A stretch of 64,000 bases of DNA. Source: Thermoplasmatota archaeon (GTDB lineage Archaea > Thermoplasmatota > E2 > UBA202 > JdFR-43). Shown here in pieces: positions 1,787 through 51,374 of the stretch. A program made the translations under genes and the position numbers. The notes below the pieces were generated by a model, which saw only the letters and a list, made by a program, of their open reading frames with translations, made no database searches and was not told where the DNA came from. Location: contig JAPDJP010000015.1 in NCBI GenBank assembly GCA_029259055.1, forward strand, positions 16,721 through 80,720, written 5' to 3'. Each line of letters begins with the position of its first letter. The first letter of the stretch is position 1.

Positions 1787-1897
1787 TCCCGGCGCCCGGA
1801 TTTGAACCGGGGACATGCGGATATCTGCGGCGGTGGGTTTCTTCCCAATTTAAAAGCAACTACAGTCCGCCGCTCTACCAGTCTGAGCTACGCCGGG
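1787..1897 (-). tRNA. tRNA-Tyr(GUA) with 37-nt intron at 37/38
   Basis: Reverse complement: CCCGGCG-TAGCTCAGACTGGTAGAGC-GGCGGACTGTAG[intron 1859-1823]ATCCGC-ATGTCCCCGGTTCAAATCCGGG-CGCCGGG-A; C1-G72 and A73 are archaeal Tyr identity elements; CCA not encoded. Confidence 0.96.
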
Positions 1898-8685: not shown

Positions 8686-10263
8686 TTATTTTTGATTCTT
8701 ACGTTGCCCTATCGCCAAAATACCTGAAATTATTAATAAAATAGATGAAAGTAATAAAAACAGGCTTCCCAGCCCAATTCCCCATTTTAAATGAACTTCC
8801 CCCAATTTTTCCAAATATAAAATCTTTTCCCCCATCAATGGATTTGTAGAAATAGCATTTATTATTTCCTCCGCCTCTCCTTTTATTGATAATTCCTTTA
8901 TCTGATAAGTAAAGAATTTAATAAAAGAAATTGCAATAATTATTAAAATAACAGGAAGCAAAAATTTAATACCTCTCCAAATATATTTTATTCCCGCTTT
9001 TTTACCTTTTATTCCTATCGTTCCTAATATGAAAAATAGAATAGCAGAGCCAATTATTACAGAAAATGGAATAGGTAATGCACCAATTTGAATCATTCCA
9101 CTATTTTTTTCAAAAAGATTAACCTGCAATCCATTTAAGCCATCAATAGAAACAATTTTAACAAATCCAGGAGTTTGGTAATCTCCTGTTGGTATATTTA
9201 CAAAAACATTATACCAAGGATAAAAAAGAGATAATATAGCAAATATTATTCCAGAAATAGCAAGTATGTTTCCTTTATTTTCCTTTATGTTAAAGACAAA
9301 GGGTATAAACTTAAATCCTCTTTTCCTCGATTTCCCATAGATAGAAAATAAAATTATTGCCAATCCTATCGCAACCGCTATTATATAAATTTTTGTAAAA
9401 TGATACAAAAACCATTCAAAATATAAAATATTCTTATTTAAAGCGGGTAAATCAAAACCCCATTCTCCATTCCACATTCTTCCTTCTTCCCTGTAAAGAG
9501 GGCCAAAAGGACCTCTTTTTCCTCTTATGTCATCCTCTGCTCCTCCAAACTCACCCCATCTTCCTCCATAATATAACCAGCTTTCATTTTTTAAGACAAC
9601 AAGTTTATACTCATTTGGATATAGAATCTTTCCGTTTTTACCAACTATATCATTTGCCAATCCTATTTTTCCTTGGTAATACCTAAAATAATTTGCATGA
9701 CTTCCCCTTGCAACATATACTTTTATATGTTCCCCTTCTTTTTCTACAAGTTTCCAACTTGCTCTTTGCCCGCTTATATGCTGGCTATACATTACTTCTA
9801 TTGGTTCCTTATTTTCGTTCAAAACAATTTGCACCATTTCCCAGTCTCCTTCATGAGTATTTAAATAACCTTTATTAAATGCATAAAAGAACCAATATTG
9901 CACAAAATAAAGATTGTTTTTGCTGAATACATGACAATATACAGTATAATTAAGCTTGCTATTTTTATAATCCTCTATTATTCTATCATCATATATTGTT
10001 CCCTTTACATTGTCCAAATAATAGTCTGCATCTTTATATTCACCTATTTCTTCTGGAGAAGGACTTGCTTTTATAAATATGCTTTCATTGTCAATACTCC
10101 TATTAAGATTTGAATTTAATAAATGATATTCGATCGAAACTGGGTAAAGCTCCTCCCCTTTTTCAAAATATAAGATAGGAGCAAATCTCTCCGCTATTTC
10201 CTCAGATTTTGAAAAATTAGCGACAAAAATTAAAAGCAGAGCTAACAATATCGCCTTTTTCAT
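8686..10263 (-). CDS. Secreted Vps62/NPP1-like domain plus about 5-6 C-terminal TM helices
   Basis: Signal peptide; FAPILYF..E..YP, QYWFFYAFN, HEGDWE, VYVARGSHANY, WL.YGGRWG..GP.GP motifs. Confidence 0.7.
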   Translation of the reverse strand: MKKAILLALLLIFVANFSKSEEIAERFAPILYFEKGEELYPVSIEYHLLNSNLNRSIDNESIFIKASPSPEEIGEYKDADYYLDNVKGTIYDDRIIEDYKNSKLNYTVYCHVFSKNNLYFVQYWFFYAFNKGYLNTHEGDWEMVQIVLNENKEPIEVMYSQHISGQRASWKLVEKEGEHIKVYVARGSHANYFRYYQGKIGLANDIVGKNGKILYPNEYKLVVLKNESWLYYGGRWGEFGGAEDDIRGKRGPFGPLYREEGRMWNGEWGFDLPALNKNILYFEWFLYHFTKIYIIAVAIGLAIILFSIYGKSRKRGFKFIPFVFNIKENKGNILAISGIIFAILSLFYPWYNVFVNIPTGDYQTPGFVKIVSIDGLNGLQVNLFEKNSGMIQIGALPIPFSVIIGSAILFFILGTIGIKGKKAGIKYIWRGIKFLLPVILIIIAISFIKFFTYQIKELSIKGEAEEIINAISTNPLMGEKILYLEKLGEVHLKWGIGLGSLFLLLSSILLIISGILAIGQRKNQK

Positions 10264-13102: not shown

Positions 13103-14284
13103 TTAGGTAACAACCCATCCAGGCCCAACCTGGGCGTATATTCTTGCAATATTTATTCTAACTATAATATTTTGCAAATTGAGCAAAACAAAATTTTCTC
13201 CTTCCGTTACTCTTCCATTGAGCTCTTCTTTAAGGAAATCCTTCCAAGCAGAAGGATAGAGAGTAGTAATATTTATTGTTACATTTGTTGCATAATAAAT
13301 ATAGCTGGTCCAGCTTGAAAAATTCGTTCTTATAGAAAATGTTCCATAACCTGCTGCTCCTGTTTTGCCAGCAACACCAACTATATTAATTAAAGTAAGA
13401 TTAAAAGTTTGATTATTAGCTATTAGCATGGGAGGGAATAACATTGTATTTCCTCCCGCCTGACTTAAAATAACAGCTCCTCCCTCATAGATATAATCTT
13501 GGTCAACAAAATAGGCATTTTGAGAGGAATATTTTATTGTACCCAACTTGTTTGTTTGGCTAATTTGTACATTTTGAAATCTAAGACAATTTATTATAAA
13601 AGTGCCATTTGATGAGCCATTTATTGAAATATTATATGGGGTAGGAAAGTTTTGTAATATATCTTTAAATTTATAATCCTCATTCAGTAAATTAATTCTG
13701 TAACTTATTCCATCCTTTAATGCAACAGCTATTGGTTGGCTAAAAATTATTTGAGTATTGTTTATTACAGTAAGATTAATCTGTACAAAATTATTTACAG
13801 TGCCAACCTCTACAGAAATATTTGCACTAAGAACAGATAAATTATAAGTATCTCCCTTTTGCAAATTCTCTATATACAATTCAAGCTCATTTACTTTTAG
13901 TATATTTGTTATTTCCCCTATATTATTTTCAAAGGAATATAATACCGCCTTCATCCCATCGCCATTTATTGATATGCTAAAATTGCTCGAATTGCTTGAT
14001 AGTATTTGCAAAGAACCAAAAGCTCTAGAGGTGACAAAGTAAGGCAATTCTTTACTACCTAAAGTAATAGAATTTATCAAGGGCGACTCACTCCTTTCTA
14101 TCGCCTGTAAATCGACGGAATATTTTAAGCTAGCAAATTGATTTGCAACCAAATCCATGTGTTCCGCTTCCCTTTCCTTCATCCATCTCGGAATATAATA
14201 TGTTTGAATAGTTATTAGCATGATGGCAAATAAAGTGACAATGAGAATTGCGACGATGACGCCAACCTGCCCCTTCCTATTCAT
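13103..14284 (-). CDS. Possible separately translated archaeal pilin-like protein (class III signal peptide) nested in frame in gene D
   Basis: Internal ATG 14284 with upstream GAGGGG SD-like site; RKG|Q + hydrophobic helix + QTYYIPRW..EREAEHM pattern seen in euryarchaeal pilin-cluster proteins. Confidence 0.55.
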   Translation of the reverse strand: MNRKGQVGVIVAILIVTLFAIMLITIQTYYIPRWMKEREAEHMDLVANQFASLKYSVDLQAIERSESPLINSITLGSKELPYFVTSRAFGSLQILSSNSSNFSISINGDGMKAVLYSFENNIGEITNILKVNELELYIENLQKGDTYNLSVLSANISVEVGTVNNFVQINLTVINNTQIIFSQPIAVALKDGISYRINLLNEDYKFKDILQNFPTPYNISINGSSNGTFIINCLRFQNVQISQTNKLGTIKYSSQNAYFVDQDYIYEGGAVILSQAGGNTMLFPPMLIANNQTFNLTLINIVGVAGKTGAAGYGTFSIRTNFSSWTSYIYYATNVTINITTLYPSAWKDFLKEELNGRVTEGENFVLLNLQNIIVRINIARIYAQVGPGWVVT

Positions 14285-16978
14285 GCTATTAAATCCCCTC
14301 TTTTTAAATAACTTTACGATATTTGCAAAAATAATGGCTACTAAGGCAATTATTATTATAATTAAAATTGTGTTATCTTTGCTACTTTTAATTTCAAATT
14401 TTGCTATATTAGAAAATTCTTTTCCATCATATGCTCTTGCCTCCACAATATGCTTACCCTTTAATTTGATTTCATAACTCCAATTTCCTTGCTCCCATTC
14501 CCCTATATCGATCCAGCTACCATTATCTATCCTTATTTCAATTTTTAAAACATCTCCATCTTCATCCTTTACTATTCCTCTTATAACACCATTTTTACAT
14601 TCATATATGGAAATATACGGTTTATGATTATTATTTACATAAATACATATTGAATCAGTTGCATAATCTTTACCATCATATGCCCTCGCCTCTATAATAT
14701 GCATTCCATTTTTTAATTCTGTTGTATCTATTTCATAATACCAGCTCAAATTTTCTACCAAAATCCAGCTACCATTATCTATCCTTATTTCAATTTTTAA
14801 AACGTCTCCATCCTCATCGTTGGCAATACCTCTAATCATAATAGAATTATTAACGTAACTTCCATTTTCTGGATATAAAATATGAATTTCAGGAGGAGTA
14901 TTTTGAACCACAGAACTTGTTACAAAATTTGCAATAATTGTCTTATTCTCATTCATTACAACTTGTATAACATTTTCATAACCCACAGCATCCCCGCCCC
15001 ATCCAGCAAATCTATAATTTGAATATGCATATGCTATCAATGTTACTTTCGTCCCATATTCATAATTTTTTTTCAATGGATTAATATGGACATATCCAGA
15101 ATTTGGAGGATTTATTATAACAGATAGCTCGTATTTTTTATATTTCAATATAACAATTTTGCTTATGTTGCCAATGCATCCATCATCATCTGTTATAGTA
15201 AGAGTAACATTGTATATTCCATCATCAGAATAGGAATGAGTGACAACGCTTCCATATGCAACATATCCATCTCCAAAGTCCCATGTATAGTTTACAATGT
15301 AGCCATCTAAATCATAACTTGAAGAAGCATTGAATATAACGGTATTGTTCACAATTTCATATGAGAAATTAGCAAAAGGTTTTCTATTCATTACAACAAT
15401 TTTTTTTGTTATGTTGCCAATCAATCCATCATTATCAACAACTCTCAAAGTAACATTGTATATACCATCATCATTCCATGAATGCTCAACTACATCACCA
15501 CTTTCATCAAATATACCATCACCATTCCAATCCCATTCATATGATACAATAGAGCCATCTAAATCATAACTTAATGAGCCATTGAAAATAACGGACTCAA
15601 AAGTATATGGATTTAAAGGCATAAAGGAAAAATTGGCAATAGGAGGAGATAATATAAGAGCGTATGTTGTATCTACAGCAATGCCTCCATAATTATCAAC
15701 AACTGTAAGAACAACAGTATAATTTCCTGGACTGCTATAGGAGTGAGTAACAACTTTTCCATATCCAACGCTTCCATCCCCAAAATTCCATGTATAATTT
15801 ACAATGTAGCCATCTAAATCATAACTTGAAGAAGCATTGAATAAAATGCTTTGATTTACAATTGCATAGTAAGCTCCTCCTGCATTTGCAAAAGGTATGG
15901 AATTTCTAACATCAATTTTTTTGCTTATGTTACCAACGCATCCATCATTATCAACAACTGTTAGAATAACAGTATAATTTCCTGGGTTATTATAGGAATG
16001 GGTGACAACTCCTCCATGTCCAACATACCCATCCCCAAAATCCCATGTATAATTTACAATGTAGCCATCTAAATCATAACTTGATGAAGCATTGAATAAA
16101 ATACTTTGATTAATATACGGGTTTAAAGGCACAAAAGAAAAATTTGCAATAGGGGGAATTAATTCCATTATTGTTATACTCTTGTTTTCTACATATGCAT
16201 ATATAATGTTGTTATACCAGTCACTTATGGTAACATTGGATAAACAAATTTCCGTTTTTCCATATGATAATGGTTTAAAATTGATTCTTGCAACATATCC
16301 GCTCCCATTTGTAACATTTGAGATTGCAACGATTCTTACTCCATTAGAAATATTATTCCAATATACATTTACAGATTCATTCCCTATCTCTCCATTTTCA
16401 ATTTCTTCTATGCATAAATAGCTCTTGTTATATAATAAATCAAAGTTCATGCTACTAAAATTGCTAACATTGTATATCATTATGTCAGCATAAAAATTCT
16501 TTTTAACAACATCCGGGGAAGAAACTTTTAAAAGCGTTGGTGTTAAAATAACGCTTTTATTAAGCCAGCTTACATTTATTTTATTTCCATGCACATCACT
16601 TAAATTTCCATATATTTTAAAATCAGCGACTCCTTTTCCAATACTCTTAAATTTAACTATAGAAAGATATCCATCGCCACTAATTCCAGTAAGACCGGCA
16701 TCTTGAACTATTTTGCAGATTCCATCATATGAATTATAGTTAACTCCTATACTATAATTTTCTATGCTTCCATTATATACTCCTATCAATTGCAAAATAG
16801 ATGAATTATAAACAATAATATAATCTGCGGCAGAAAAATTACTTAGGTTATAAGCCATAATATATAAATTGATTTCATTTCCAGTTAGTACTATAGATGG
16901 ACAGGAAAGCTGTATAGTTGCAGCTATTGAAGTTACTGCAAATGCATTAAGTGCCAATATTACTACTAATAATTTCAT
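13103..16978 (-). CDS. Gene D: scaffoldin-like surface protein (signal peptide, 2 cohesin-like, 4 PKD, InlB-B-like repeat, 2 Ig-like, TM) fused in frame to a prepilin-like protein
   Basis: Two ~120-aa repeats with cohesin pattern (N..N..A.D..I.YN..IL....V..G....G.G.L..V.F); WDFGDG PKD motifs; TM TILIIIIIALVAIIFANIV-KLFKKR; then MNRKG|QVGVIVAILIV. Confidence 0.78.
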   Translation of the reverse strand: MKLLVVILALNAFAVTSIAATIQLSCPSIVLTGNEINLYIMAYNLSNFSAADYIIVYNSSILQLIGVYNGSIENYSIGVNYNSYDGICKIVQDAGLTGISGDGYLSIVKFKSIGKGVADFKIYGNLSDVHGNKINVSWLNKSVILTPTLLKVSSPDVVKKNFYADIMIYNVSNFSSMNFDLLYNKSYLCIEEIENGEIGNESVNVYWNNISNGVRIVAISNVTNGSGYVARINFKPLSYGKTEICLSNVTISDWYNNIIYAYVENKSITIMELIPPIANFSFVPLNPYINQSILFNASSSYDLDGYIVNYTWDFGDGYVGHGGVVTHSYNNPGNYTVILTVVDNDGCVGNISKKIDVRNSIPFANAGGAYYAIVNQSILFNASSSYDLDGYIVNYTWNFGDGSVGYGKVVTHSYSSPGNYTVVLTVVDNYGGIAVDTTYALILSPPIANFSFMPLNPYTFESVIFNGSLSYDLDGSIVSYEWDWNGDGIFDESGDVVEHSWNDDGIYNVTLRVVDNDGLIGNITKKIVVMNRKPFANFSYEIVNNTVIFNASSSYDLDGYIVNYTWDFGDGYVAYGSVVTHSYSDDGIYNVTLTITDDDGCIGNISKIVILKYKKYELSVIINPPNSGYVHINPLKKNYEYGTKVTLIAYAYSNYRFAGWGGDAVGYENVIQVVMNENKTIIANFVTSSVVQNTPPEIHILYPENGSYVNNSIMIRGIANDEDGDVLKIEIRIDNGSWILVENLSWYYEIDTTELKNGMHIIEARAYDGKDYATDSICIYVNNNHKPYISIYECKNGVIRGIVKDEDGDVLKIEIRIDNGSWIDIGEWEQGNWSYEIKLKGKHIVEARAYDGKEFSNIAKFEIKSSKDNTILIIIIIALVAIIFANIVKLFKKRGFNSMNRKGQVGVIVAILIVTLFAIMLITIQTYYIPRWMKEREAEHMDLVANQFASLKYSVDLQAIERSESPLINSITLGSKELPYFVTSRAFGSLQILSSNSSNFSISINGDGMKAVLYSFENNIGEITNILKVNELELYIENLQKGDTYNLSVLSANISVEVGTVNNFVQINLTVINNTQIIFSQPIAVALKDGISYRINLLNEDYKFKDILQNFPTPYNISINGSSNGTFIINCLRFQNVQISQTNKLGTIKYSSQNAYFVDQDYIYEGGAVILSQAGGNTMLFPPMLIANNQTFNLTLINIVGVAGKTGAAGYGTFSIRTNFSSWTSYIYYATNVTINITTLYPSAWKDFLKEELNGRVTEGENFVLLNLQNIIVRINIARIYAQVGPGWVVT
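15157..15646. repeat. ~490-bp near-identical repeat encoding two PKD domains, copy 1 (gene D)
   Basis: Matches 20006-20495 at offset 4849; antisense ORFs 15330-15569 and 20179-20418 translate identically. Confidence 0.93.
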
Positions 16979-19485
16979 GCTTTCCCTAATATTTTATTTA
17001 TAAGCATTTCCATATCTTCCTGATTAACATTCCCATTTTTATCTACATCTGCTGGTGGGGTGGGGGTATCGATTCCCGCCAAAATTCTCTCCATTTTAGT
17101 AATGTCCATTGCATTTAGCTTTCCATCTAAATTGGCATCCCCTCTTTTATATACAGTTACTTCTATTTCTTTTGAATAAACTCCTCCATATTCATCTGTT
17201 GCTAACAAAATAACGGTATATTTACCAGCTCTTCTATAAACGTGCGTAACATTCTTCCCATATGCAATGCTCCCGTCCCCAAAATCCCATTTCCATGAAA
17301 TAATGTTTCCGCTCGAATTGTCATAGAAATAGCCTGTTTCATTTTCAAATAAGAAAGAATATGAAAAGTTTATTGATACATTTTGTATTGTATGGAAAAC
17401 AAAAATACCTGTTGTAGAGATATTTTTACCATCATTTACAACAACATACCATCTATATGTTTTTCCATGTTTTAAATTCAAAGCTACACATGCATATCCA
17501 TTGTATGTTTCAATAGAAGAAATTTTACTTCCATTATGCCAATAGAATGTAACATTTAATATATCGTAATCCTCATCATACACATAAATTTGGAGAGAAA
17601 TATTTATTCCCACTACAGTGTCATTTTCTGGATATAAAATTGTTATATTTGGAGGATGATTTTCTTTTAACAATGTAGAAAAGTTCTTTACTTCTCCATA
17701 TGCTATTCTACCATTTGAACCAACAGCAACAGCTCTATAACTATAGCATTTTCCATCTTTCAATCCAGTAATATTGACATTGAATAAACCCGTAGTATTT
17801 ACTGTTTTGACAGATGTTGTTTTCTTGCTTTTACCATCCCAGTATTCAAACCAAATGTAACAAAAATCACTCCCTCCCAATGAAGTTAAGTTTGCGTATA
17901 AAGTAGCATTATGATATGATGCCATTGCATCCCAAGTAGCAATGGAGGGAGGAGCAGGAAGCGCCAAAGTTTTAAAAGTAAGATTTACTCCATAAGATAT
18001 CCCCTTACTATTTTCAACAACAGCCCTATAGTAATACAAAGTATTTTCCTTTAAATTGGTTAATACTTCGTAAAATTCTCCAGTTGAATCCATTATCTTT
18101 TTTTGTGTTTGATTTTTTTCTCCTCCCTCCTCCCAATATTCAAACCATACCTTACAGCTGTCATCACCTCCCATATCTGTTAAATTTCCCTTTAGAATAA
18201 TGGCATATTCTATTGCCCTCGTTTCCACGCTTGCTTTTATTGGTTGAGTATAGAATGTATGGTCATTTCCATAGGTTATACCTTTATAATTTTTGGCAAT
18301 TGCCCTAAAATGATAAACTTTTCCTGGCTCCAAATTATCGATTTCTATTGAAAATTCACCAACAGAATAAATATTTAGTTTTTGTGTTGTATAACCATAA
18401 GATGTTGTCTCTCCATACTCAAACCATGCTTCACAGCCATCATCCCCTCCCAAATCAGTTAGCTCTCCCCTTAATACAGCTGAATAACTTGTAACATTTT
18501 CAGCATCTAATGTTATAACAGATGGATAAATAATATGGGTTGTAAATGTTAAATCCTCTCCCACAGATGTTCCAGCAATATTACTTGCAATAGCCCTAAA
18601 ATGATATGTTGTATTAACTGTTAACCCAGATATAGTGTAATAGAACTGGGATGGCGAAGTTTTTTGGATAACCGGGGTAGAATATGCATAATCCTGCCAG
18701 TTTTCATGAAATGTTGTATCATAAACAAACCAGACTTGGCAATTCTGAGCTCCTACCCTATTTAAATACCCATTTAATGTTGCTTCATTATATCCAATAT
18801 TTGTTGCCTGCTGTGTAATAACTTCTGGAATTTCTGCTGGAGTATGAAAAGTTAAATCATTTCCATAACTTGTTTTTTTGCTATTCCTAGCAACAGCTTT
18901 AAAATGGTATGTTGTATCTGGTTTTAAATTAGTAATAGCAATACTAAAGATTCCTTCTTCATATAGTGTTAATTTTTGTGTTGTATAACCATAAGATGCT
19001 GTTTCCCCATATTTAAACCATACCTTACAGCTGTCATCCCCTCCCAAATCAGTTAGCTCTCCCCTTAATACAGCTGAATAACTTGTAACATTTTCAGCAT
19101 CTAATGTTATAATGCTTGGACTCCCAATCAATGAAAAACTTATATTTTTTGAAGGTTGACTAACATCTAAAATAAAAGATTTGCTATTTTCTTCCCCATT
19201 ATAACTACAATATACCGTGATTGTGTCCCCATCTTCACAATTTGGCAGATTATATAAATTGGCTTGATAATAACCATTTTGTTGAGTTGAAACCGAAATT
19301 TGCGTTGATTTATCAACATCTTTTATTATAACAGATACGCCAGCTGGCAAAGGCTCCCCATCGCTATTTTTTATGTATCCATATACTGGAAATGGCTGGT
19401 CCAGCGCTTTTCCTCTATCAATTACTTCTATGGTTGTAAAGAGTATTAACAAACCAACAAACAAACTTTTTATTTTTTTATTCAT
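16975..19485 (-). CDS. Gene C: secreted protein with about 5 FN3-like repeats, Ig-like, PKD and C-terminal dockerin
   Basis: Signal peptide; repeats SA.L.G.L..LGG....VWF.YG...L.P...YHF.A.A.N..G..YG....F.T; C-terminal duplicated Ca-loop GDANLDGKLNAMD...ADVDKNGNVNQED. Confidence 0.82.
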   Translation of the reverse strand: MNKKIKSLFVGLLILFTTIEVIDRGKALDQPFPVYGYIKNSDGEPLPAGVSVIIKDVDKSTQISVSTQQNGYYQANLYNLPNCEDGDTITVYCSYNGEENSKSFILDVSQPSKNISFSLIGSPSIITLDAENVTSYSAVLRGELTDLGGDDSCKVWFKYGETASYGYTTQKLTLYEEGIFSIAITNLKPDTTYHFKAVARNSKKTSYGNDLTFHTPAEIPEVITQQATNIGYNEATLNGYLNRVGAQNCQVWFVYDTTFHENWQDYAYSTPVIQKTSPSQFYYTISGLTVNTTYHFRAIASNIAGTSVGEDLTFTTHIIYPSVITLDAENVTSYSAVLRGELTDLGGDDGCEAWFEYGETTSYGYTTQKLNIYSVGEFSIEIDNLEPGKVYHFRAIAKNYKGITYGNDHTFYTQPIKASVETRAIEYAIILKGNLTDMGGDDSCKVWFEYWEEGGEKNQTQKKIMDSTGEFYEVLTNLKENTLYYYRAVVENSKGISYGVNLTFKTLALPAPPSIATWDAMASYHNATLYANLTSLGGSDFCYIWFEYWDGKSKKTTSVKTVNTTGLFNVNITGLKDGKCYSYRAVAVGSNGRIAYGEVKNFSTLLKENHPPNITILYPENDTVVGINISLQIYVYDEDYDILNVTFYWHNGSKISSIETYNGYACVALNLKHGKTYRWYVVVNDGKNISTTGIFVFHTIQNVSINFSYSFLFENETGYFYDNSSGNIISWKWDFGDGSIAYGKNVTHVYRRAGKYTVILLATDEYGGVYSKEIEVTVYKRGDANLDGKLNAMDITKMERILAGIDTPTPPADVDKNGNVNQEDMEMLINKILGKA
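18379..19112. repeat. Intragenic ~140-bp duplication (18379-18518 and 18973-19112) in FN3-like repeats
   Basis: Near-identical DNA at offset 594 encoding ITLDAENVTSYSAVLRGELTDLGGDD...YGYTTQKL. Confidence 0.88.
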
Positions 19486-22400
19486 CCTATCACCTCCATT
19501 AAAAAGCTACCAGAATTTGCAACCCTCAAAACGACACAATCCCCCGGTTCAATAACAAAATCATAAGAGGAAGGAGAAACACCAACTATATAATCATCAA
19601 ACCCCCCTTTATTAACATTCCATTTACTTATTACACTCCCTTCTGGCATAATATCACTTCCTATTAATTCAGCAAGCTGAGAAGCCTTTATTGATTGGCT
19701 CAGCCATGGAATATAATTGACAACATTTTTTTGATTTTTAACTAAAGAGATTTTAGTATCAACCCTTACAATTTTTGAAATGCTATCGTTATACTCACCA
19801 TTAAAAATCGTAAGAGTAACATTGTAATAATTTCCTAATGGATAAGTATGGCTTGTATTTCTATCCATGCATTTCTTACCATCCCCAAAATCCCAAAGCC
19901 AGGCAGAAGCACCTTTTGATAAATCAATAAAATCTATTTTTTGTTTAGATACCGGATTCTCAGGTATATATGTAAAATTAGCTATTAGGATTATTATTTC
20001 CAAATTTTTGCTTATGTTGCCAATGCATCCATCATCATCTGTTATAGTAAGAGTAACATTGTATATTCCATCATCAGAATAGGAATGGGTAACAACGCTT
20101 CCATATGCAACGCTTCCATCTCCAAAGTTCCATGTATAATTTACAATGTAGCCATCTAAATCATAACTTGAAGAAGCATTGAATATAACGGTATTGTTCA
20201 CAATTTCATATGAGAAATTAGCAAAAGGTTTTCTATTCATTACAACAATTTTTTTTGTTATGTTGCCAATCAATCCATCATTATCAACAACTCTCAAAGT
20301 AACATTGTATATACCATCATCATTCCATGAATGCTCAACTACATCACCACTTTCATCAAATATACCATCACCATTCCAATCCCATTCATATGATACAATA
20401 GAGCCATCTAAATCATAACTTAATGAGCCATTGAAAATAACGGACTCAAAAGTATATGGATTTAAAGGCATAAAGGAAAAATTGGCAATAGGAGGGGAAG
20501 TTAAATTGAAAGAATAGATATTTGATTTAATGCCATTTAATTCATCTTTTGCAAAAATGTAAAATTCATATTTTCCATATTCAAAACTTGAATTGTAATA
20601 ATAAGTATCGTTTAATCCTTTAGTCATTTTTGCAGAAAAATTAGAAAAATTAATCCACACTTCCTTTACTTCAATATTATCTATAACAATGCAGGAAATA
20701 TTTACATATTCATTAATAAGAATGCTCACATTTCTTATTTCAGGTGGGTCATTATCAATTATATTAACAATTTTCTCCCCCGTACTATTCCAATTCCCGA
20801 ATTCATCTTTTGCTACAATCATATAATGCAAAATAGTTTCATTAGCAACAATAATCTCTTTAATCCAATAATCTCCAGATTTTTCCATACTTTCATTATA
20901 ATGGCTTCCATTATACCAGTATTCAACAAATGCTGTTACATTACTTTTATCGCTTATACTTGCATTAAAAATAAAAGAATCACCAGTTGTCGGTATGGAA
21001 GTTAAATCCTTTATTGTTGGCTTTTCAATATCTATGAAATTTGCAACCAAGCTTTTATTTGAATCTAACAAAATTTGAATAGTTTCATTCACACTGCTTA
21101 CATCCCCGCTCCAATAAGCAAATTCATAGCCATCATATGCATATGCAGTTATGGTTATGTAACCATATCCATATAAACCGCTAGATGGAACAGTATATCC
21201 AGCATTTGGAGGAAATATGCTTATATTTAGCTTAAAAGCTTTTGTTTTAAAATGCCATATACAACTCATATTTTCAATTTTGCCATCATTTACAACAACA
21301 TACCAGTAATATGTTTTATTATATTCTAAATTAAGCTGGCATTCAACATTTCCAGAAACATTTTCAAATTCCGCTACCAATTCATCATTCAAATAGAAAT
21401 AAACATGCAATGAATCATTATCCACATCATATATATATGCTATTAAGCTAACATTTTTTGAAACAATGGAATTATTTTCTGGCTCTAATAAATGAATAAT
21501 TGGAGGATGATTATACATAACAATTTTACTTACGTTACCAACGCATCCATCATTATCAACAACTGTAAGAACAACAGTATAATTTCCTGTATTACTATAA
21601 GAATGAGTAACAACTTTTCCATGTCCAACGCTTCCATCTCCAAAATCCCATGTATAATTTACAATGTAGCCATCTAAATCATAACTTGAAGAAGCATTGA
21701 ATATAACAGTATTGTTCACAATTTCATATGAGAAATTAGCAATAGGTTTTTGTAGAACATTTATTGATACAGTATCATATAATTTTGTTCCTAAAATATC
21801 AATTACTGTTAAATTAGCAACAGAAGAAATATTATAAGTACATGTTATGGAAAAATTACCAGATAAATTCCCAACATATTCAGCTATTCCGTCGTTATTT
21901 ATGTCCAGTTTCCATATAGAAATTTCTCCGTCTATATTAATGTAGAATGTAACTGTAAGGGGGGCGCATCCCTGATTTATATTTACAGATAAATTACAGA
22001 AAGGCTCTTTAATTATTTTAAAGGAATATGTAGAAGAAACATTAACATTTCCATTAATGTCAATGGCACATATAAAGAAATAATATGTTCCTACCATGGA
22101 ATATGTTTGGTTTATATAGCGATTAGAGATTTTTTGCATGCTACCGTCTGGATAGGTTATATTAATCCATGTTTCCTTTATACCTGCATTATCTGTAACA
22201 TTGCAGGATATGTTAACGTATTTACCTTTATATTGAATCGATGGATTTATATTAATATCTAAAATTTTTGGTGGCAGATTATCCGATACAGTTTTAAAAT
22301 ACCATATACAACTCATATTTTCAATTTTGCCATCATTTACAACAACATACCAGTAATATGTTTTATTATATTCTAAATAAAGCTGGCATTCAACATTTCC

Positions 22401-25274
22401 AGAAACATTTTCAAATTCCGCTACCAATTCATCATTCAAATAGAAATAAACATGCAATGAATCATTATCCACATCATATATACATGCTATTAAGCTAACA
22501 TTTTTTGAAACAATGGAATTATTTTCTGGCTCTAATAAATGAATAATTGGAGGATGATTATATGAAATATACATAACAATTTTACTTACGTTACCAACGC
22601 ATCCATCATTATCAACAACTGTAAGAACAACAGTATAATTTCCTGTATTACTATAAGAATGAGTAACAACGCTTCCATATGCAACGTTTCCATCTCCAAA
22701 ATTCCATGTATAGTTTACAATGTAGCCATCTAAATCATAACTTGAAGAAGCATTGAATATAACGGTATTGTTCACAATTTCATATGAGAAATTAGCAATA
22801 GGAAAATACGTAACTGTAAAATTATAAATAGGAGAAGAAATGGAATTGTTGCTTAAATCTCTTGCCCATACATAAAAATAATATGTTCCTAGATCATTAC
22901 ATATTATAGATGCAGAGAAGTTATTTCCGTATCCAAACATGCTCACATTTATTTTACCAGTGGGCTTTGTTACATTTAAATACACCTTATCCAGTCCTCT
23001 ATTATCTCTTACCATACAAGATATATTTGTGATGCCAGGCTCTATAAATCTATTATACGATATATTGCTAATAATGGGTGGCAGGCTATCAATAATTTTG
23101 AAGGTATAATTTTTGGTGGCATTTAAATATCCATTTACATCAGTTGCATAAATATAAAATTCATGCAGCCCAATATCAAAAGTTGAATTTATATAGTATA
23201 TGCCATTTCCCTTTTCATCCGCTATTTTGCTCATGCTTATATTTTCATCATCTATTACAATTATAACGCTTTCAACACCCACATTATCATAGACGTAGCA
23301 TGAAATATTAACAGGATATCCATATTGTTGTACATTCTGATAGCTTATATTCTTTATGGAGGGCGGCATCGGCGGAACTATTATGGTAAAGTTCAGTAGA
23401 TTAGTTGTATTCGTGTTCCCGCTTTTATCCTTTGTCCAGATATAGTAATAATATGTTCCTTCCTCATTACCCAAGATTTTATAATAATATAAATTTCCCG
23501 CTTTATTCATACTTATATTTGTAAAGTTGCCAGAAGGCGTTGTAATATTTATTTTAGCAATACTTACTTCAACATTATCTATAATTATGCACGATATATT
23601 GACGTATTCATCGATTTCTTGTGGATTTGGACAGGCGGATAGATTTTTAATTTCTGGAGGAATCAAATCCAAAACAACTATACTCTTTGTTATGCTACTT
23701 GTTGCATAGTCATCATCGGTAACAGTAAGAGTAACATTGTATATTCCATCCCTATAATATGTATGCAATGGATTTTTATAATTACCTTCTAAGATTGTTC
23801 CATCCCCAAAATCCCATCTCCATATGTATATGTCTCCATCAGGGTCTATTGATAAATCCGTAAATAAAACTTCCTCTCCCACCTGAGGATTCTCCGGAAT
23901 AAAATTAAAATCCGCAACTGGTGGAATATTCTCTACAAATATTTCCTTTTCCATAACATCCCAAGCACCATCATTATCATATACAGTTAATCTTACAACA
24001 TATGATGGAGGACTATTCTGTGTATATCTATGGGTAACAACTTTTCCATGTCCAACGCTTCCATCTCCAAAATCCCATGTATAATTTACAATGTAGCCAT
24101 CTAAATCATAACTTGATGAAGCATTGAATACAATATCATCTAAATCTGTTGGATTGGTTGGCATATATGTGAAATTTGCTACCGGCTTGTATGCTATGAC
24201 AAATTTTTGTAGCGAAGATTTTTCAGAATTATTATTTACGTCCATTGCCCAGACATAATAGTAATATATTCCTTTTATGGAATATGTATTGTTGAAGTAA
24301 TATATATCACCAATATTATTCATACTCTCATTTATAAATGTGCCATTAGGAAAGGAAATATTTATATATGCAAATAATACCTCCACATTATCAACTATTT
24401 TACAACTAATATTAACCCATGAATTTGGAATCTGGATTTGAGGATTTGCTTTTAAATCATTAATATCTGGAGGGTATATATCCTCACCAAAATAGATTTC
24501 CATCAGGGGGTAGTAATCAAAATTTCCTTTTTCAAAAGGCTCTATCTGGTAAGGTATATCTCCTACCCCATCTCCGTCATCATCTGTCCCTGTGTACTTA
24601 TCCCAATAATTTCCAACATTTAAATAGAACCATTGATTAAAAGTGCTTTCGTCATATGCATCTATTCCATTATTTATGAAATTATTATAATAAAATATAT
24701 TGTATCTTGTATTTGAACCAAAATCTATACCATAGGCATTTGAAATAAATAAATTTTCTTTAATGGTGGAATTTTGTAGCCCGACCGCAGATATACCATA
24801 TGAATTCATATAAAAAATGTTAGTTGATATTAGATTGTTTATTCCCCCATATGAATATATTCCTCCATAGTTATGAGAAAAATTGCAATTCCTGATTGAG
24901 CAATTTTCAACGTTATCAAGTTTTATACCATAATATCCTTCGCTTGAATTTTTTATGGTAAATCCCTCTATTTCAACATTATTTGCAGTAATTGTTATTC
25001 CATGTTTTCCTTCTCCACATTCAATAATCGCTTTTTTATTTTCTCCTTTTAAAACTAAATTTTTATCAATTACTATATTTTCATGGTAAACACCAGCATA
25101 AACATATATTGTATCTCCAGGTAAAGCAAAATCTATGGCTTCCTGAATGTTATTAAAATCTGCTGTGCCATCATCATCAACATAAATTATTGCTGGCTTT
25201 GCAAATCTTATATTAAATAACGAAATCAATAGAAGAATTGTTATAATCCAAACAACCCTTTTTATAGCCACCAT
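19482..25274 (-). CDS. Gene B: 1930-aa secreted protein, N-terminal NosD/CASH beta-helix, about 7-8 PKD and several Ig-like domains
   Basis: Signal peptide; IYVDDDG.ADF..IQEAID...GDTIYVYAGVYHENI; GNYWD.Y.G.D.DGDGVGDIPY; repeated W[DN]FGDG; no C-terminal TM. Confidence 0.85.
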   Translation of the reverse strand: MVAIKRVVWIITILLLISLFNIRFAKPAIIYVDDDGTADFNNIQEAIDFALPGDTIYVYAGVYHENIVIDKNLVLKGENKKAIIECGEGKHGITITANNVEIEGFTIKNSSEGYYGIKLDNVENCSIRNCNFSHNYGGIYSYGGINNLISTNIFYMNSYGISAVGLQNSTIKENLFISNAYGIDFGSNTRYNIFYYNNFINNGIDAYDESTFNQWFYLNVGNYWDKYTGTDDDGDGVGDIPYQIEPFEKGNFDYYPLMEIYFGEDIYPPDINDLKANPQIQIPNSWVNISCKIVDNVEVLFAYINISFPNGTFINESMNNIGDIYYFNNTYSIKGIYYYYVWAMDVNNNSEKSSLQKFVIAYKPVANFTYMPTNPTDLDDIVFNASSSYDLDGYIVNYTWDFGDGSVGHGKVVTHRYTQNSPPSYVVRLTVYDNDGAWDVMEKEIFVENIPPVADFNFIPENPQVGEEVLFTDLSIDPDGDIYIWRWDFGDGTILEGNYKNPLHTYYRDGIYNVTLTVTDDDYATSSITKSIVVLDLIPPEIKNLSACPNPQEIDEYVNISCIIIDNVEVSIAKINITTPSGNFTNISMNKAGNLYYYKILGNEEGTYYYYIWTKDKSGNTNTTNLLNFTIIVPPMPPSIKNISYQNVQQYGYPVNISCYVYDNVGVESVIIVIDDENISMSKIADEKGNGIYYINSTFDIGLHEFYIYATDVNGYLNATKNYTFKIIDSLPPIISNISYNRFIEPGITNISCMVRDNRGLDKVYLNVTKPTGKINVSMFGYGNNFSASIICNDLGTYYFYVWARDLSNNSISSPIYNFTVTYFPIANFSYEIVNNTVIFNASSSYDLDGYIVNYTWNFGDGNVAYGSVVTHSYSNTGNYTVVLTVVDNDGCVGNVSKIVMYISYNHPPIIHLLEPENNSIVSKNVSLIACIYDVDNDSLHVYFYLNDELVAEFENVSGNVECQLYLEYNKTYYWYVVVNDGKIENMSCIWYFKTVSDNLPPKILDININPSIQYKGKYVNISCNVTDNAGIKETWINITYPDGSMQKISNRYINQTYSMVGTYYFFICAIDINGNVNVSSTYSFKIIKEPFCNLSVNINQGCAPLTVTFYINIDGEISIWKLDINNDGIAEYVGNLSGNFSITCTYNISSVANLTVIDILGTKLYDTVSINVLQKPIANFSYEIVNNTVIFNASSSYDLDGYIVNYTWDFGDGSVGHGKVVTHSYSNTGNYTVVLTVVDNDGCVGNVSKIVMYNHPPIIHLLEPENNSIVSKNVSLIAYIYDVDNDSLHVYFYLNDELVAEFENVSGNVECQLNLEYNKTYYWYVVVNDGKIENMSCIWHFKTKAFKLNISIFPPNAGYTVPSSGLYGYGYITITAYAYDGYEFAYWSGDVSSVNETIQILLDSNKSLVANFIDIEKPTIKDLTSIPTTGDSFIFNASISDKSNVTAFVEYWYNGSHYNESMEKSGDYWIKEIIVANETILHYMIVAKDEFGNWNSTGEKIVNIIDNDPPEIRNVSILINEYVNISCIVIDNIEVKEVWINFSNFSAKMTKGLNDTYYYNSSFEYGKYEFYIFAKDELNGIKSNIYSFNLTSPPIANFSFMPLNPYTFESVIFNGSLSYDLDGSIVSYEWDWNGDGIFDESGDVVEHSWNDDGIYNVTLRVVDNDGLIGNITKKIVVMNRKPFANFSYEIVNNTVIFNASSSYDLDGYIVNYTWNFGDGSVAYGSVVTHSYSDDGIYNVTLTITDDDGCIGNISKNLEIIILIANFTYIPENPVSKQKIDFIDLSKGASAWLWDFGDGKKCMDRNTSHTYPLGNYYNVTLTIFNGEYNDSISKIVRVDTKISLVKNQKNVVNYIPWLSQSIKASQLAELIGSDIMPEGSVISKWNVNKGGFDDYIVGVSPSSYDFVIEPGDCVVLRVANSGSFLMEVIG
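20006..20495. repeat. ~490-bp near-identical repeat, copy 2 (gene B)
   Basis: Matches 15157-15646. Confidence 0.93.
21244..22802. repeat. Intragenic ~500-bp duplication in gene B (21244-21746 and 22291-22802): PKD plus Ig-like module
   Basis: Offset 1047, changing to 1056 across a 9-nt in-frame indel; protein repeats NHPPIIHLLEPENNSIVSKNVSLIA...WYVVVNDGKIENMSCIW. Confidence 0.92.
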
Positions 25275-28200
25275 TTTCTCGGACTTAATAATGGGTACTT
25301 ATCTTGATTAATACCAGGAGGAATTATGTAAGGATCGGTTGAGATATGTTCATTCCAATAATTTCCAGATGTGCTTATATACCATGAATTATTTCCAGCA
25401 TCATATGCTTGGCTATCGTTATGAAGTGTATTGTTTATGAAGTTATTATAATAGAATTTATTTGCAGTACAATCTTGAGAAGCTACATATATTCCATAAT
25501 CATTTGTTGTTATGTTATTTTCATAAACTTCATTGTTAGTTGAGGAAGAAATTACAAAGATTCCATAAGAGTTATTCCATATGATGTTATGCATTATGTA
25601 ATTACTATTTGAAGAATTTATCAGGATACCTGCATTGCTATTATTCCATATAAGATTATCTGTAATTGGTAAAGAATCTCCTTGAGAGGAAAGTAATATA
25701 TAAATTCCATTTAAATTGAAAGATATATTGTTCTTCTGTATATCATTATTGTTTGAAGAATATAAATATAAGCCGTGTAAATTGTTTTCACGAATTTCGT
25801 TCAGTTGTATAGTATTACTATGAGATTTATTTAAAAATATACCATTTCCAGAATTATTATAAATCTGATTATTTTGTATCGAATTAATACTTGAGGAATA
25901 TAGGTATATACCATTTTCCCTGTTTTCATAAATTCTATTTCCTATAATTTCGTTGTTGCCTGCTGTTGCGGACCTTGACCTGTCCAAATAAATTCCATTT
26001 TTATTCCAAAATATTGTATTGTTCAAAATTGTGTTTCCAGAACCACCAGACAGCAATAAGTATATTCCATCATAGCTATTGCTATAAATAGTATTATTCA
26101 TAATATCATTATCATCTGAAGAGGAAATGTAAATGCCATTTTGAGTATTGTTGGATATTGTATTATTCATGATTTTATTGTTGTGACTATCTGATAACCA
26201 AATTCCTTGAAAATTTGATTTAATAGTATTGTTTATTATACTATTTGTACTTGCAGATAAAAATTGCATACCATAACCATTGTTTTCTATAGTATTGTTA
26301 AGTATTGTATTTTCCGAAGAATATGAAGACAAGACAATACCATAATCGTTTTGTGATATGGCGTTTTCTTTAATGATATTGTAATTTCCCTTTTCTATGC
26401 AAACTCCCTTCAAATTATTCCTTATAATGTTTTTTATAATATAGTTATCACTGGAGAGATAAGAAAGTTTTATTCCTTCTTTTGTATTTGACAATATGGT
26501 ATTGTTTTTGATATAATTTCCAACAGAGCGGTATAAACAGATGGCGGTACCATTATTAAATGATATATTGTTATTTGCAATGATATTTTCCCCATTTGTA
26601 GTCAGCATAGAAAATGCAAGATAGATTCCATTCCCATTATACAGAATTTCATTTGATGATATATTATTTTTATTACCCTGATAGATATAAATAGCTTGCA
26701 AGTTACCACTTATTACATTTGAAACTATTGTATTATTATTTGATGATGTAGAGAGATTAATGGCATAGGTGTTATTCATTATTGTATTTGATACGATAAT
26801 ATTGGAAGCAGAATAATAAGCACTTATTCCTTTGCTATTCAGATATATGTCATTTAAAATTAGGTCATTGTTACTAGAATTTTGGAGAGATATTGCAATG
26901 CTGTTATTATAGATTTTATTCTCTCTTAGTGTATTTGTATGGGAGAATTTTTCTATAAGTATCGCTTCCAAATCATTTTTTGCTATTGTGTTATTTATTA
27001 AAGAATTTGTATTTGATATTTCAAGCCTTATACCTCTATCATTATTAATGATTTTATTGTTTATAATTTCATTTCTATTTGTTGAAGACATCAAATAAAT
27101 TCCCTCTTGAGCATTACCGATGAAAGCATTGTTTGATATTATATTGCTTTCAGCTGAGTCAATAAATAAACCAATTCCATTTTGAGATATATTATTTTTA
27201 TCTATTGTGTTTAAGCTTGCTCTATATAAATAAAGTCCATATCCATTATTTTTAATATCATTATTTAGGATTTTGTTACCTAAGCTGTTGCTACCAAAAA
27301 TGCCATTTGTACAATTTTTTATTATGTTTCCTTGTATTGTATTATTATGGGAGCTCAACAAGTATATTCCATTATTTGCTCCGCTGATTGTACAATTAAT
27401 AATCTTTACCCTTGCTGAATTACTAACAAGAATTCCTGTTTGTAAATCTCCCTTAATAACAAAACCTTCTATTTTAGCCCAATCAATTGTTACTTCGATT
27501 CCTGTTTGTGAAGCAAAAATTGTTGGATTATCTATGCCAATTAGGTCTATTGATTTATTCAGAACGACGTCTTCATAATATATCTGCCCACTGCTTCCAA
27601 TTACATAAACTTTCCCTCCTGGCGTAACAGCATTTATTCCTTCTTGGATAGTAGCAAAATGATTTGGTTGATTTAGCCATTCTTCCGTTGCATCATTATT
27701 CACCCATACTTCTGTTGCATATCCTGCGCCCTCTGCTAGCCAAGCCAAAACATTTCTAAGATAATTCTCTCTGCTTTCCTGTGTTATTTCGTCAGCGTTT
27801 AAATCGAAGCCCAATATTATGCTTCTATTTCTCCCTCTCTCGGCATCTATCGCATAGTATCCAACTGGAATTGAAGATTTACTACCCTTTACCACGACAT
27901 CATCCAAATAATATCCATAGGAGCGCCAGCGCCAATCGCTGACCAAGCGCCACCTTATCTGAATAACTTTTCCAGCAAAAGCTGATATATCTATAGTGTG
28001 ATGTGTCCAGCTTCTTTGGTCACCATAAAATACAGCTATCGTTTGCCAAGTGCTTCCTCCGTCATCAGATATTTCCAGATATACATAGTCGTAGGTGTTA
28101 TGGTAGCCATATACTATATAATACCAATCATAAAATTCCAGTACAGCTGTTGTAAAATTGCTCAAATCTATACTACCTGTTTTTAACCAGCAATTTGCAT

Positions 28201-49600: not shown

Positions 49601-49846
49601 CACTTGTATATTTTCAGATTCCCAGAACCATATCCCATTTTTATTATTATGAATGTTACAATTTAAGATAGTAATATAATAAGAATAGAATACCGTAATT
49701 CCATTAAATGATGATAAAATGTTACAATCTGAAATTGAGATATTATTTGCTCCGTTTATTTTAATAGATGAATATTGAGGATATGAATTTATTATTTTGA
49801 AATTGGTTATTTTTACATTACTTGTTTCTATGAGGATACCATCTCC

Positions 49847-51015: not shown

Positions 51016-51374
51016 GGGGATGATGAGGATAATGGAGGAAGACTTGTGAATGATGCTAATCCTTCATTTATTTTTCCTTCTTCTACTTCATTTCCTTTTT
51101 CTTCTTCCGCTTCTGCCTTCCATTCATTTTCATTTCCTATCATTCCAACAAAAATATTTCCAATCAAAATTGCCAGTATGAAAAGAGATGTTGCCCTTTT
51201 CATGTTTTTACCTCCTTCCCTGCATTATGTATAATTATGTATTTATTGTGCAAATTAAAAATTTATGAGGTATGCAATAGCATATTCGGAGAAAAGAAAT
51301 AAAAAGTCATAAAAAGATCAAGTCATTTTATCAAGATAAGCAGAAAGTTTTTCATCTGATGCAAGATTTACATT

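What the first reader, a model, noticed from the sequence alone, without database searches (positions are those of the whole stretch)
13103..14400. Scaffoldin fused in frame to a prepilin: possible polyprotein cut by prepilin peptidase
Seen: after the TM anchor and basic tail of gene D (...ALVAIIFANIV-KLFKKRGFNS) there is no stop; the frame runs on into MNRKG|QVGVIVAILIVTLFAIML and a further ~370 aa. A GAGGGG SD-like site precedes the internal ATG at 14284. Inference: the topology (out-TM-basic loop-TM-out) puts the KG|Q site on the cytoplasmic face where PibD cleaves, so one translation product could yield anchored scaffoldin and mature pilin 1:1. Alternatives are an internal start, a recently lost stop codon or an assembly error.
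Basis: partly seen in the sequence, partly recalled or inferred. Interest (0 to 1): 0.75.

Follow-up and report, generated by a model that had tools for sequence, protein, structure and literature searches.

The report
Lost stop fuses anchor to pilin
In one uncultured seafloor archaeon, small frameshifts have joined a membrane-anchored surface-protein gene to the pilin-like gene behind it; the join is real but absent from every relative examined, the pilin keeps what looks like its own promoter, and whether the pilin-trimming enzyme cuts the joined protein apart is untested.

Summary
The 1291-aa open frame (13103-16978, minus strand) is real: contigs from 3 studies bridge the hinge without a gap and another assembly encodes the same join. 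It unites a cohesin/PKD surface protein with a C-terminal anchor and a DUF7289 prepilin-like protein (KG|QV). The fusion is private to this species: 0 of 44 other loci are fused, and 24 of them carry the homologous anchor gene separately just upstream. The 'basic tail' is the pilin gene's conserved BRE/TATA-like element read through: the relatives' ending (KYRKVI, stop inside the TATA) survives in another frame, and a second 1-nt loss removed the first of the tandem start codons seen in 24 of 33 relatives. The element remains, 27 nt before the ATG, the genome's leaderless spacing. Best reading: a tolerated accident, with free prepilin made from its own transcript while the operon mRNA gives a two-helix fusion whose KG|Q site faces the cytoplasm. 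PibD is present; cleavage is about as likely as not and untested. An evolved, obligatory 1:1 polyprotein is unlikely.

The parts
13103..16978 (-). Fused ORF, 1291 aa: anchored cohesin/PKD surface protein (aa 1-898) plus DUF7289 prepilin-like protein (aa 899-1291)
   Evidence: bridged by contigs of 3 studies
16913..16978 (-). Putative class I (Sec) signal peptide, hydrophobic peak aa 4-22
   Evidence: hydropathy; similar N-termini in orthologues; cleavage site inferred
16172..16498 (-). Cohesin domain (best of two Pfam PF00963 stretches, aa 161-269; the other stretch was not located in the output and is inferred to lie N-terminal to it)
   Evidence: 33 bits vs cut-off 24.1
15137..16156 (-). Four PKD domains (about aa 275-614; limits approximate)
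   Evidence: PF18911, 4 stretches, 246 bits
14426..15121 (-). InlB B-repeat-like domain (aa 620-686) and bacterial Ig-like domains (aa 696-764; weak 803-851)
   Evidence: PF18998, PF17957 above cut-off; PF19077 below cut-off
14315..14371 (-). C-terminal transmembrane anchor of the surface protein (aa 870-888)
   Evidence: hydropathy 3.18; helix in junction model
14322..14331 (-). T5/A3 runs just after the anchor: most likely place of the 1-nt change that took the ancestral stop out of frame (relatives mostly have four A here); exact base not determinable
   Evidence: alignment A2; column counts; frames
14304..14325 (-). Conserved BRE/TATA-like element of the pilin gene; its TAA (14306-14304) is the out-of-frame ancestral stop
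   Evidence: matrix from 33 relatives ranks this site first of 2,682,650 positions in the genome, 24.2 vs next 16.9 bits; upstream gene stops at this TAA in 11 of 44 loci
14270..14314 (-). Hinge, 15 aa, 6 basic and no acidic residues; predicted cytoplasmic loop
   Evidence: positive-inside rule (established knowledge)
14295..14300 (-). SD-like GAGGGG, 16 nt before the ATG (off the genome's SD peak)
14282..14284 (-). Internal ATG (Met899), 27 nt from the TATA start; the only in-frame start left where 24 of 33 relatives have tandem starts
14201..14275 (-). Class III signal-like site KG|QV (cut predicted between nt 14270 and 14269) and following hydrophobic helix
   Evidence: motif conserved in alignment A1: G/A at -1 in 34 of 34, Q at +1 in 27 of 34; hydropathy 3.03
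13103..14284 (-). DUF7289 prepilin-like protein, 393 aa: long N-terminal helix then beta-rich body
   Evidence: PF23960 37.7 bits vs cut-off 27; AlphaFold pLDDT 90.7, helix 3-63
16975..19485 (-). Upstream operon gene, 836 aa, FN3-like/PKD domains and C-terminal dockerin (likely partner of the cohesins; binding not tested)
   Evidence: PF00404 35.4 bits vs 22.9; syntenic in 4 of the 6 genomes whose locus was mapped, the other two contigs end too early
19482..25274 (-). Upstream operon gene, 1930 aa PKD-rich surface protein
25262..30415 (-). First operon gene, 1717 aa, N-terminal archaeal pilin (Pilin_N, KG|IS site), PKD and beta-helix domains
   Evidence: PF07790 53.3 bits; class III scan

Best explanation
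A lineage-fixed, probably accidental gene fusion. Ancestrally the anchored cohesin/PKD protein ended a few codons after its transmembrane helix, often at the TAA inside the TATA-like box of the next gene, a single-copy DUF7289 minor-pilin-like gene with its own promoter and tandem start codons. In this species one 1-nt change after the anchor took that stop out of frame and a second 1-nt loss before the ATG put the read-through frame in register with the pilin (shown: sequence comparison; order and exact bases inferred). The operon mRNA must therefore give a 1291-aa protein: signal peptide, ectodomain outside, anchor, 15-aa basic cytoplasmic loop, pilin helix, pilin body outside (inferred). 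Free prepilin with a normal 5-aa leader is most likely still made from a leaderless transcript of the retained promoter (inferred), which makes the fusion tolerable. The fusion's KG|Q site lies where PibD works; I put its trimming at about even odds, and if it happens the cell simply recovers the two ancestral products.
For: Real and shared by distinct haplotypes. 0 of 44 other loci with the pilin N-terminus are fused; 24 of 44 have the homologous anchor gene separately upstream; of 245 homologues with the N-terminal part matched only this species' two records have an extension over 30 aa; of 150 listed matches in 197 genomes of the class only G000 has an open frame over 510 aa (382 matches not listed). 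The relatives' ending KYRKVI-stop is present in another frame of the window. Locus L050 shows the same first shift in another lineage (tail NFVKLFKKEVLHI-stop, against RKKFRKVI-stop in its close relative L008) without fusing, so the step recurs and needs no selection for a polyprotein. The element is conserved whatever lies upstream, including loci without the anchor gene, and ranks first genome-wide. Genome-wide TATA-like words peak 30 to 25 nt before ATGs (61 of 400 first-in-operon-like against 12 of 309 internal genes); archaeal leaderless genes have the promoter box about 26 nt from the start and 11 of 11 Thermoplasmata were put in that group (PMC6028130, passages). PibD, PilB-like and TadC genes are present.
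Against: Retention of the element could be simple descent after a recent fusion; against a generic promoter matrix from this genome it scores only moderately (282 of 3579 internal ATGs score as high; 38th percentile of first-gene upstreams). The ATG sits 27 nt from the TATA start whereas all 33 relatives have a start at 28-30, so the second deletion may have impaired independent initiation. No transcript start, proteomic or cleavage data exist; the RNA run X3 is contigs only and may hold DNA. No sister species between 72% and about 99% identity was found, so the fusion cannot be dated. L050 is one short contig and its shift could be an assembly error.
Confidence: 0.6

Rival explanations
1. Obligatory polyprotein: the fusion is now the main or only source of the pilin, PibD cuts KG|Q behind the anchor, and scaffold and pilin are delivered 1:1, possibly under selection.
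For: The pilin gene is single-copy here and found in 34 of 38 same-order genomes, so it is probably needed; the first tandem start is lost and the SD is off-peak; the motif KGQV equals the listed processing site of M. maripaludis EpdB and EpdC (PMC4371748, table passage); the junction model shows two helices with a 7-residue break (low confidence); 3 of 4 variants in the pilin part are synonymous (too few to test).
Against: Unique to one species among all relatives examined; the hinge is just the promoter read through, with no sign of adaptation; the promoter-like element is intact; no report of prepilin peptidase cutting behind a transmembrane helix was found.
Confidence: 0.14
2. Uncleaved chimera: PibD cannot take a substrate tethered by an upstream helix, so the fusion stays a two-pass membrane protein displaying both the cohesin/PKD arm and the pilin body, as a passenger or a new tethered adhesin, and little or no free pilin is made.
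For: All characterised class III leaders in the passages read are short N-terminal peptides (3 to 12 aa in PMC10117864); both halves would be exported by ordinary topology rules (inference); the junction model keeps both helices.
Against: Predicts loss of the assembled pilin, which is conserved across the order; the retained promoter-like element offers a route to free prepilin.
Confidence: 0.14
3. Decay: the frameshift is an early step of pseudogenisation of the pilin or of the operon in a small, drifting population.
For: Another surface-protein gene in the window (46690-51203) is broken by two frameshifts; the sampled haplotypes are about 99.5% identical or closer.
Against: Both halves and the three upstream genes are full-length and intact; 6 of 8 variants seen are synonymous; the pilus machinery is present.
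Confidence: 0.07
4. Recoding: ribosomal or transcriptional slippage in the hinge restores termination for part of the ribosomes, giving the free anchored protein.
For: Both other frames close within the hinge; the hinge holds T5 and A5 runs and TTT AAA AAG codons.
Against: The longest homopolymer is 5 nt and I saw no canonical X XXY YYZ heptamer in frame (by inspection); nothing conserved suggests a stimulator.
Confidence: 0.03
5. Assembly error in a homopolymer.
For: The putative shift lies in short T/A runs; contigs drop rare variants (caveat).
Against: Three studies with different substitutions bridge the hinge without a gap; P0003 is fused; no near-identical stand-alone pilin turned up among 114 hits (best 67%).
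Confidence: 0.02

Closest known systems
DUF7289 (Pfam PF23960) archaeal prepilin-like proteins; probably the arCOG02911 putative minor pilins of Makarova et al. 2016 (PMC4858521, passages; the equivalence is my guess and was not tested)
   Same: Pfam match above cut-off, class III-like site, long N-terminal helix and beta-rich body, variable length family.
   Different: Here the gene is fused behind an 898-aa anchored protein; no other such member was found.
Archaeal class III signal peptide substrates of PibD/FlaK/EppA (e.g. M. maripaludis EpdB, EpdC with KGQV)
   Same: K at -2, G at -1, Q at +1, G at +3, hydrophobic helix; peptidase with YTD and GGAD motifs in the genome.
   Different: In the fused product the site is at residue 903 behind a transmembrane helix; no Glu at +5, which EppA substrates are said to carry; cleavage not shown.
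Bradyrhizobium japonicum fbcH cytochrome b/c1 polyprotein (recalled; the search found no paper with the term fbcH)
   Same: One reading frame for two membrane proteins that are separate in relatives, joined by an internal signal-peptidase site.
   Different: That precursor is processed by a class I-type signal, is experimentally shown and has no known separate start for the second half; here the site is class III, processing is untested, and the second half keeps its own start and promoter-like element.
Non-cellulosomal cohesin-dockerin surface systems
   Same: Anchored cohesin-bearing protein next to a dockerin-bearing protein in a pilin-flanked surface operon.
   Different: No glycoside hydrolase domain in the dockerin protein, so 'scaffoldin' is by analogy only; the fusion is absent from the other genomes.

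Membership tests
DUF7289 (PF23960) | Score above Pfam gathering cut-off | tested here: met
   37.7 bits vs 27 for aa 899-1291
Class III signal peptide (PibD substrate) | Charged residue at -2, G/A at -1, hydrophobic-type +1/+2 | tested here: met
   KG|QV; G/A at -1 in 34 of 34 aligned homologues; same four letters as EpdB/EpdC
Class III signal peptide (PibD substrate) | Hydrophobic helix directly after the site | tested here: met
   hydropathy 3.03, aa 906-924
Class III signal peptide (PibD substrate) | Site close to the N-terminus of the translation product | tested here: not met
   Residue 903 of the fused ORF; it would be met (5-aa leader) for a product from the internal ATG
Class III signal peptide (PibD substrate) | Cognate peptidase in the genome | tested here: met
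   PF01478 and PF06847 over cut-off on contig C14; YTD and GGAD motifs
Class III signal peptide (PibD substrate) | Cleavage actually occurs | not testable with these tools
   needs proteomics or in vitro assay
Type IV pilin-like proteins | Long N-terminal alpha-1 helix followed by a beta-rich globular part | tested here: met
   AlphaFold model, helix 3-63 then strands, pLDDT 90.7
Type IV pilin-like proteins | Fold match to a solved pilin | tested here: inconclusive
   Best VIA Z 7.4 (rmsd 4.1, 121 aligned) to a lectin-like sandwich over aa 112-237; S. sanguinis PilC Z 6.3 (rmsd 3.5, 115 aligned); none reached Z 8
Type IV pilin-like proteins | Assembly ATPase and platform genes in the genome | tested here: met
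   3 PF00437 and 2 PF00482 matches over cut-off
Scaffoldin (cohesin-dockerin system) | Cohesin modules plus cell-surface anchor | tested here: met
   PF00963, 2 stretches, over cut-off; C-terminal helix
Scaffoldin (cohesin-dockerin system) | Dockerin-bearing partner | tested here: met
   PF00404 in the adjacent 836-aa gene; binding not tested
Cellulosomal scaffoldin | Dockerin-bearing carbohydrate-active enzymes | not tested
   The adjacent dockerin protein shows no glycoside hydrolase family; the rest of the genome was not scanned for them
Prokaryotic membrane polyprotein (fbcH-like, recalled) | One frame encoding two proteins that are separate in relatives | tested here: met
Prokaryotic membrane polyprotein (fbcH-like, recalled) | Second half depends on the precursor (no start signals of its own) | tested here: not met
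   Own ATG and conserved promoter-like element retained; their activity is not shown
Prokaryotic membrane polyprotein (fbcH-like, recalled) | Fusion conserved in a clade | tested here: not met
   0 of 44 other loci, 0 of 243 other homologues
Prokaryotic membrane polyprotein (fbcH-like, recalled) | Processing demonstrated | not testable with these tools
   experimental

The most novel reading that the evidence does not exclude
The 1291-aa product is made and PibD cuts it at the internal KG|Q site behind the anchor, making it a natural archaeal polyprotein processed by a class III signal peptidase from a membrane-tethered 'leader' of 900 residues; with the first start codon lost, this may even be a main route to the pilin. 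That would show prepilin peptidases need no free short N-terminus, and that pilins can hide inside larger genes where N-terminal scanners miss them.
Probability: 0.35. Interest if true: 0.62.

Novelty: new variant of a known kind. Interest (0 to 1): 0.36.

Why it matters
As it stands it is a clean, well-documented case of gene fusion by stop loss in which the linker is the downstream gene's promoter read as protein, showing how a stop codon embedded in a TATA box makes such fusions easy to reach. Its wider value is as a ready-made natural test of an open point of substrate recognition: can PibD/FlaK-type GxGD peptidases cut a class III site tethered by an upstream transmembrane helix? A yes would extend the rules for predicting pilins and offer a way to co-deliver anchored and filament proteins; a no would define a limit of the enzyme. 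The organism is uncultured and the fusion is confined to one species, which caps the importance.

Tried and rejected
Other fusions: the 'longer' protein search gave 3 hits among 7378 candidates: P0003 (same species), P0021 (874 aa; lacks the pilin N-terminus, its C-terminal half matches the G001 pilin, on a 3.2-kb contig; treated as a probable chimera, not a hinge fusion) and P0022 (ordinary N-terminal prepilin with an insert). The 1234-aa frame in G054 is a GC-rich genome's long DUF7289-like gene without an anchored partner in front. The exact 393-aa product is not in the protein collection, which says nothing about an internal start because gene callers keep the longest frame. No 16S anti-SD was found in the assembly, so SD pairing was not computed. 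Run X11 leaves 13834-14299 uncovered, which is no evidence. The fold search was inconclusive. The junction model is low-confidence (pLDDT 65.9, pTM 0.30) and has no membrane. No complex prediction was run (enzyme-substrate and cohesin-dockerin pairs are poor uses of it). Literature: 10 searches; DUF7289 appears in 0 papers; none of the listings or passages read described prepilin peptidase cleavage behind a transmembrane helix. Three primary papers (Ng 2009, Szabo 2007, Hu 2011) were not held. Passages of PMC11821415, PMC4336324, PMC3119063, PMC4985597, PMC3584216, PMC8727766, PMC4390842 and PMC13705601 added nothing on internal cleavage. Rows dropped before counting: L047 (pilin N-terminus not covered) and L001 (the window itself); several of the 44 loci are the same species sampled twice (33 distinct contexts with the element).
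Full report
Observation. The window holds one open frame on the minus strand from 16978 to 13103, 1291 aa. Pfam finds two cohesin stretches, four PKD domains, an InlB B-repeat-like and Ig-like domains in the first 870 residues and DUF7289 (PF23960) in the last 393. Hydropathy gives a signal-peptide-like peak at aa 4-22 and two helices at aa 870-888 and 906-924 around the 15-aa hinge KLFKKRGFNSMNRKG (6 basic, no acidic residues). The internal ATG is at 14284. The SD-like word is GAGGGG, not GAGGGGG, and starts 16 nt before the ATG. Both other frames close inside the hinge. It is the only ORF of this two-helix, two-large-domain shape among 1111 ORFs scanned in the genome.

Not an assembly error. 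Twenty public runs hold the stretch in part, ten of them half or more (vent and marine sediment metagenomes). I laid 4 of them. Single contigs of X1 (13600-14540, 0 other letters), X3 (13600-14521, 1) and X5 (13600-14740, 6) cross the hinge with no gap; they come from 3 studies and differ at other sites, so at least two are not the source of the window. X11 has only a 151-nt piece at 14300-14450, identical but too short to count. Contigs drop rare variants, so a minority split haplotype is not excluded, and the three studies may sample one region. P0003, a 726-aa product of another assembly, has the same join; it shares a variant with X1 and may not be independent of it. No near-identical stand-alone pilin appeared among 114 homologues (best 67%).

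Relatives are split. Homologues are named Thermoplasmata or Thermoplasmatota archaea by their sources. The pilin gene is found in 34 of 38 genomes of the same order and has an open frame of at most 509 aa in all of them, against 1296 here. Of 44 other loci covering the pilin N-terminus (29 from genomes, 15 from metagenomes; one more dropped as incomplete; some are the same species twice) none is fused, and 24 carry a homologue of the anchor gene's membrane-proximal part directly upstream on the same strand. Six genomes mapped in detail show the anchor gene directly before the pilin gene as two genes, with the dockerin gene before them in the four whose contigs reach that far. Among 261 proteins gathered by three searches, 245 match the N-terminal part of the family profile and only the two records of this species have more than 30 residues in front (the profile search listed 150 of 1327 hits). 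In 197 genomes of the class, 173 have a match, and of the 150 listed matches only G000 exceeds 510 aa (382 not listed).

What the hinge is. The DNA of the 'basic tail' is a conserved non-coding element, consensus AAAATATCGCAAAG TTATTTAA, at a nearly fixed distance from the pilin start in 33 distinct relatives, in different frames and also where no anchor gene precedes it. It has the shape of an archaeal BRE plus TATA box (established knowledge). A matrix built from the relatives alone ranks the hinge first of 2,682,650 positions in G000 (24.2 bits, next 16.9). In 11 of 44 loci the upstream gene stops at the TAA within this TATA, ending K(Y/F/N)RK(V/I)I, and the window's own third frame reads KYRKVI-stop at that place. 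The window has three A where 28 of 32 contexts have four A or begin the run one base earlier: a 1-nt change just after the anchor explains the lost stop, though the exact base cannot be fixed. A second 1-nt loss lies before the ATG: 24 of 33 relatives have tandem start codons (25/28, 26/29 or 27/30 nt from the TATA start) and all have one at 28-30, while G000 has a single ATG at 27. Both are needed for the fusion. Locus L050 shows the first shift alone, in another lineage, giving the same VKLFKK read-through that then stops out of frame; it is one short contig and could be an error, but it suggests the step recurs without selection for a polyprotein.

Is there an internal start? In this genome TATA-like words peak 30 to 25 nt before ATGs (61 of 400 first-in-operon-like against 12 of 309 operon-internal genes), whereas SD words peak at -13 to -9. 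GeneMarkS-2 places the promoter box about 26 nt before leaderless archaeal starts and classed 11 of 11 Thermoplasmata as frequently leaderless (PMC6028130, passages). The hinge fits the leaderless pattern better than the SD pattern. Against this: on a generic promoter matrix the site is only moderate (282 of 3579 internal ATGs score as high), its spacing is 1 nt shorter than in any relative, and it could persist by descent. The RNA run X3 cannot show a start or strand.

The pilin and its machinery. The 393-aa part folds with a 60-residue N-terminal helix and a beta-rich body (pLDDT 90.7); a fold search was inconclusive (best Z 7.4). G/A at -1 is invariant in 34 aligned homologues; KGQV is the listed processing site of M. 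maripaludis EpdB and EpdC, which are EppA substrates with a +5 Glu that is absent here (PMC4371748, passages). The genome has one A24 peptidase of PibD size with YTD and GGAD motifs, three PilB-like ATPases and two TadC-like genes. A low-confidence model of the junction shows two helices separated by seven non-helical residues. Of 8 variants seen between haplotypes 6 are synonymous, 3 of 4 in the pilin part, too few for a test. Makarova et al. describe arCOG02911 as a variable-length, FlaFind-positive, beta-rich putative minor pilin (PMC4858521, passages); that it equals DUF7289 is my untested guess, and the supplements, which I did not open, may bear on it.

Mechanism. Shown: fusion, its restriction to this species among those examined, the retained element and ATG, the machinery. 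Inferred: the operon mRNA yields the 1291-aa two-helix protein with the hinge inside; a leaderless mRNA yields normal prepilin; the fusion is therefore tolerated. Open: whether PibD trims the tethered site. Reviews report processed leaders of 3 to 12 aa and studies of minimal length only (PMC10117864, passages); my ten searches found no test of a transmembrane-tethered substrate. Longer type IVb leaders and the signal-peptidase-processed fbcH polyprotein of Bradyrhizobium are recalled precedents, from no call. I put cleavage near even odds, and the obligatory, selected polyprotein at about 0.14.

Verdict. A real, species-restricted fusion in a known kind of pilin-flanked cohesin-dockerin surface operon (noted before in another genome, e1-4722211): new variant of a known kind, interest 0.36. 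The novel reading, a class III peptidase-processed polyprotein, has probability about 0.35 and would merit about 0.62; it is directly testable in vitro.

Noticed in passing
window 46690-51203 (-): A large beta-helix/PKD/Ig surface-protein gene with C-terminal anchor is broken into three ORFs by two frameshifts (near 50500 and near 47770); real decay or assembly error not checked with reads.
   Followed up: partly
window 1787-1897 (-): Rfam tRNA match 111 nt long (55.9 bits), missed by ARAGORN in bacterial mode; probably an intron-containing archaeal tRNA.
   Followed up: partly
L002-L055, pilin start: Tandem start codons in 24 of 33 relatives, the first at SD distance and the second at leaderless distance from the TATA-like box; may allow both operon-coupled and leaderless translation (inference).
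   Followed up: partly
L008, L014 (upstream gene stop): Anchor gene and pilin are in the same frame, separated by a single TAA in the TATA-like box, so one substitution or read-through would fuse them.
   Followed up: no
L018, L020, L053-L055: In these loci the gene before the pilin ends in a dockerin-like sequence instead of a membrane anchor, and the promoter-like element diverges.
   Followed up: no
window 25262-30415 (-): 1717-aa protein with an N-terminal archaeal pilin domain followed by PKD, MAM-like and beta-helix domains; the second-best hit of the family promoter matrix lies right at its start (16.9 bits).
   Followed up: no
window 14511-14566 and about 14756-14811: A roughly 55-nt direct repeat between the two Ig-like domains of the anchor protein; it breaks several contigs.
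   Followed up: no
window 8686-10263 (-): 525-aa membrane protein with a Vps62-like domain (28.3 bits vs cut-off 22.1) between SMC/ScpA genes and lonB.
   Followed up: no
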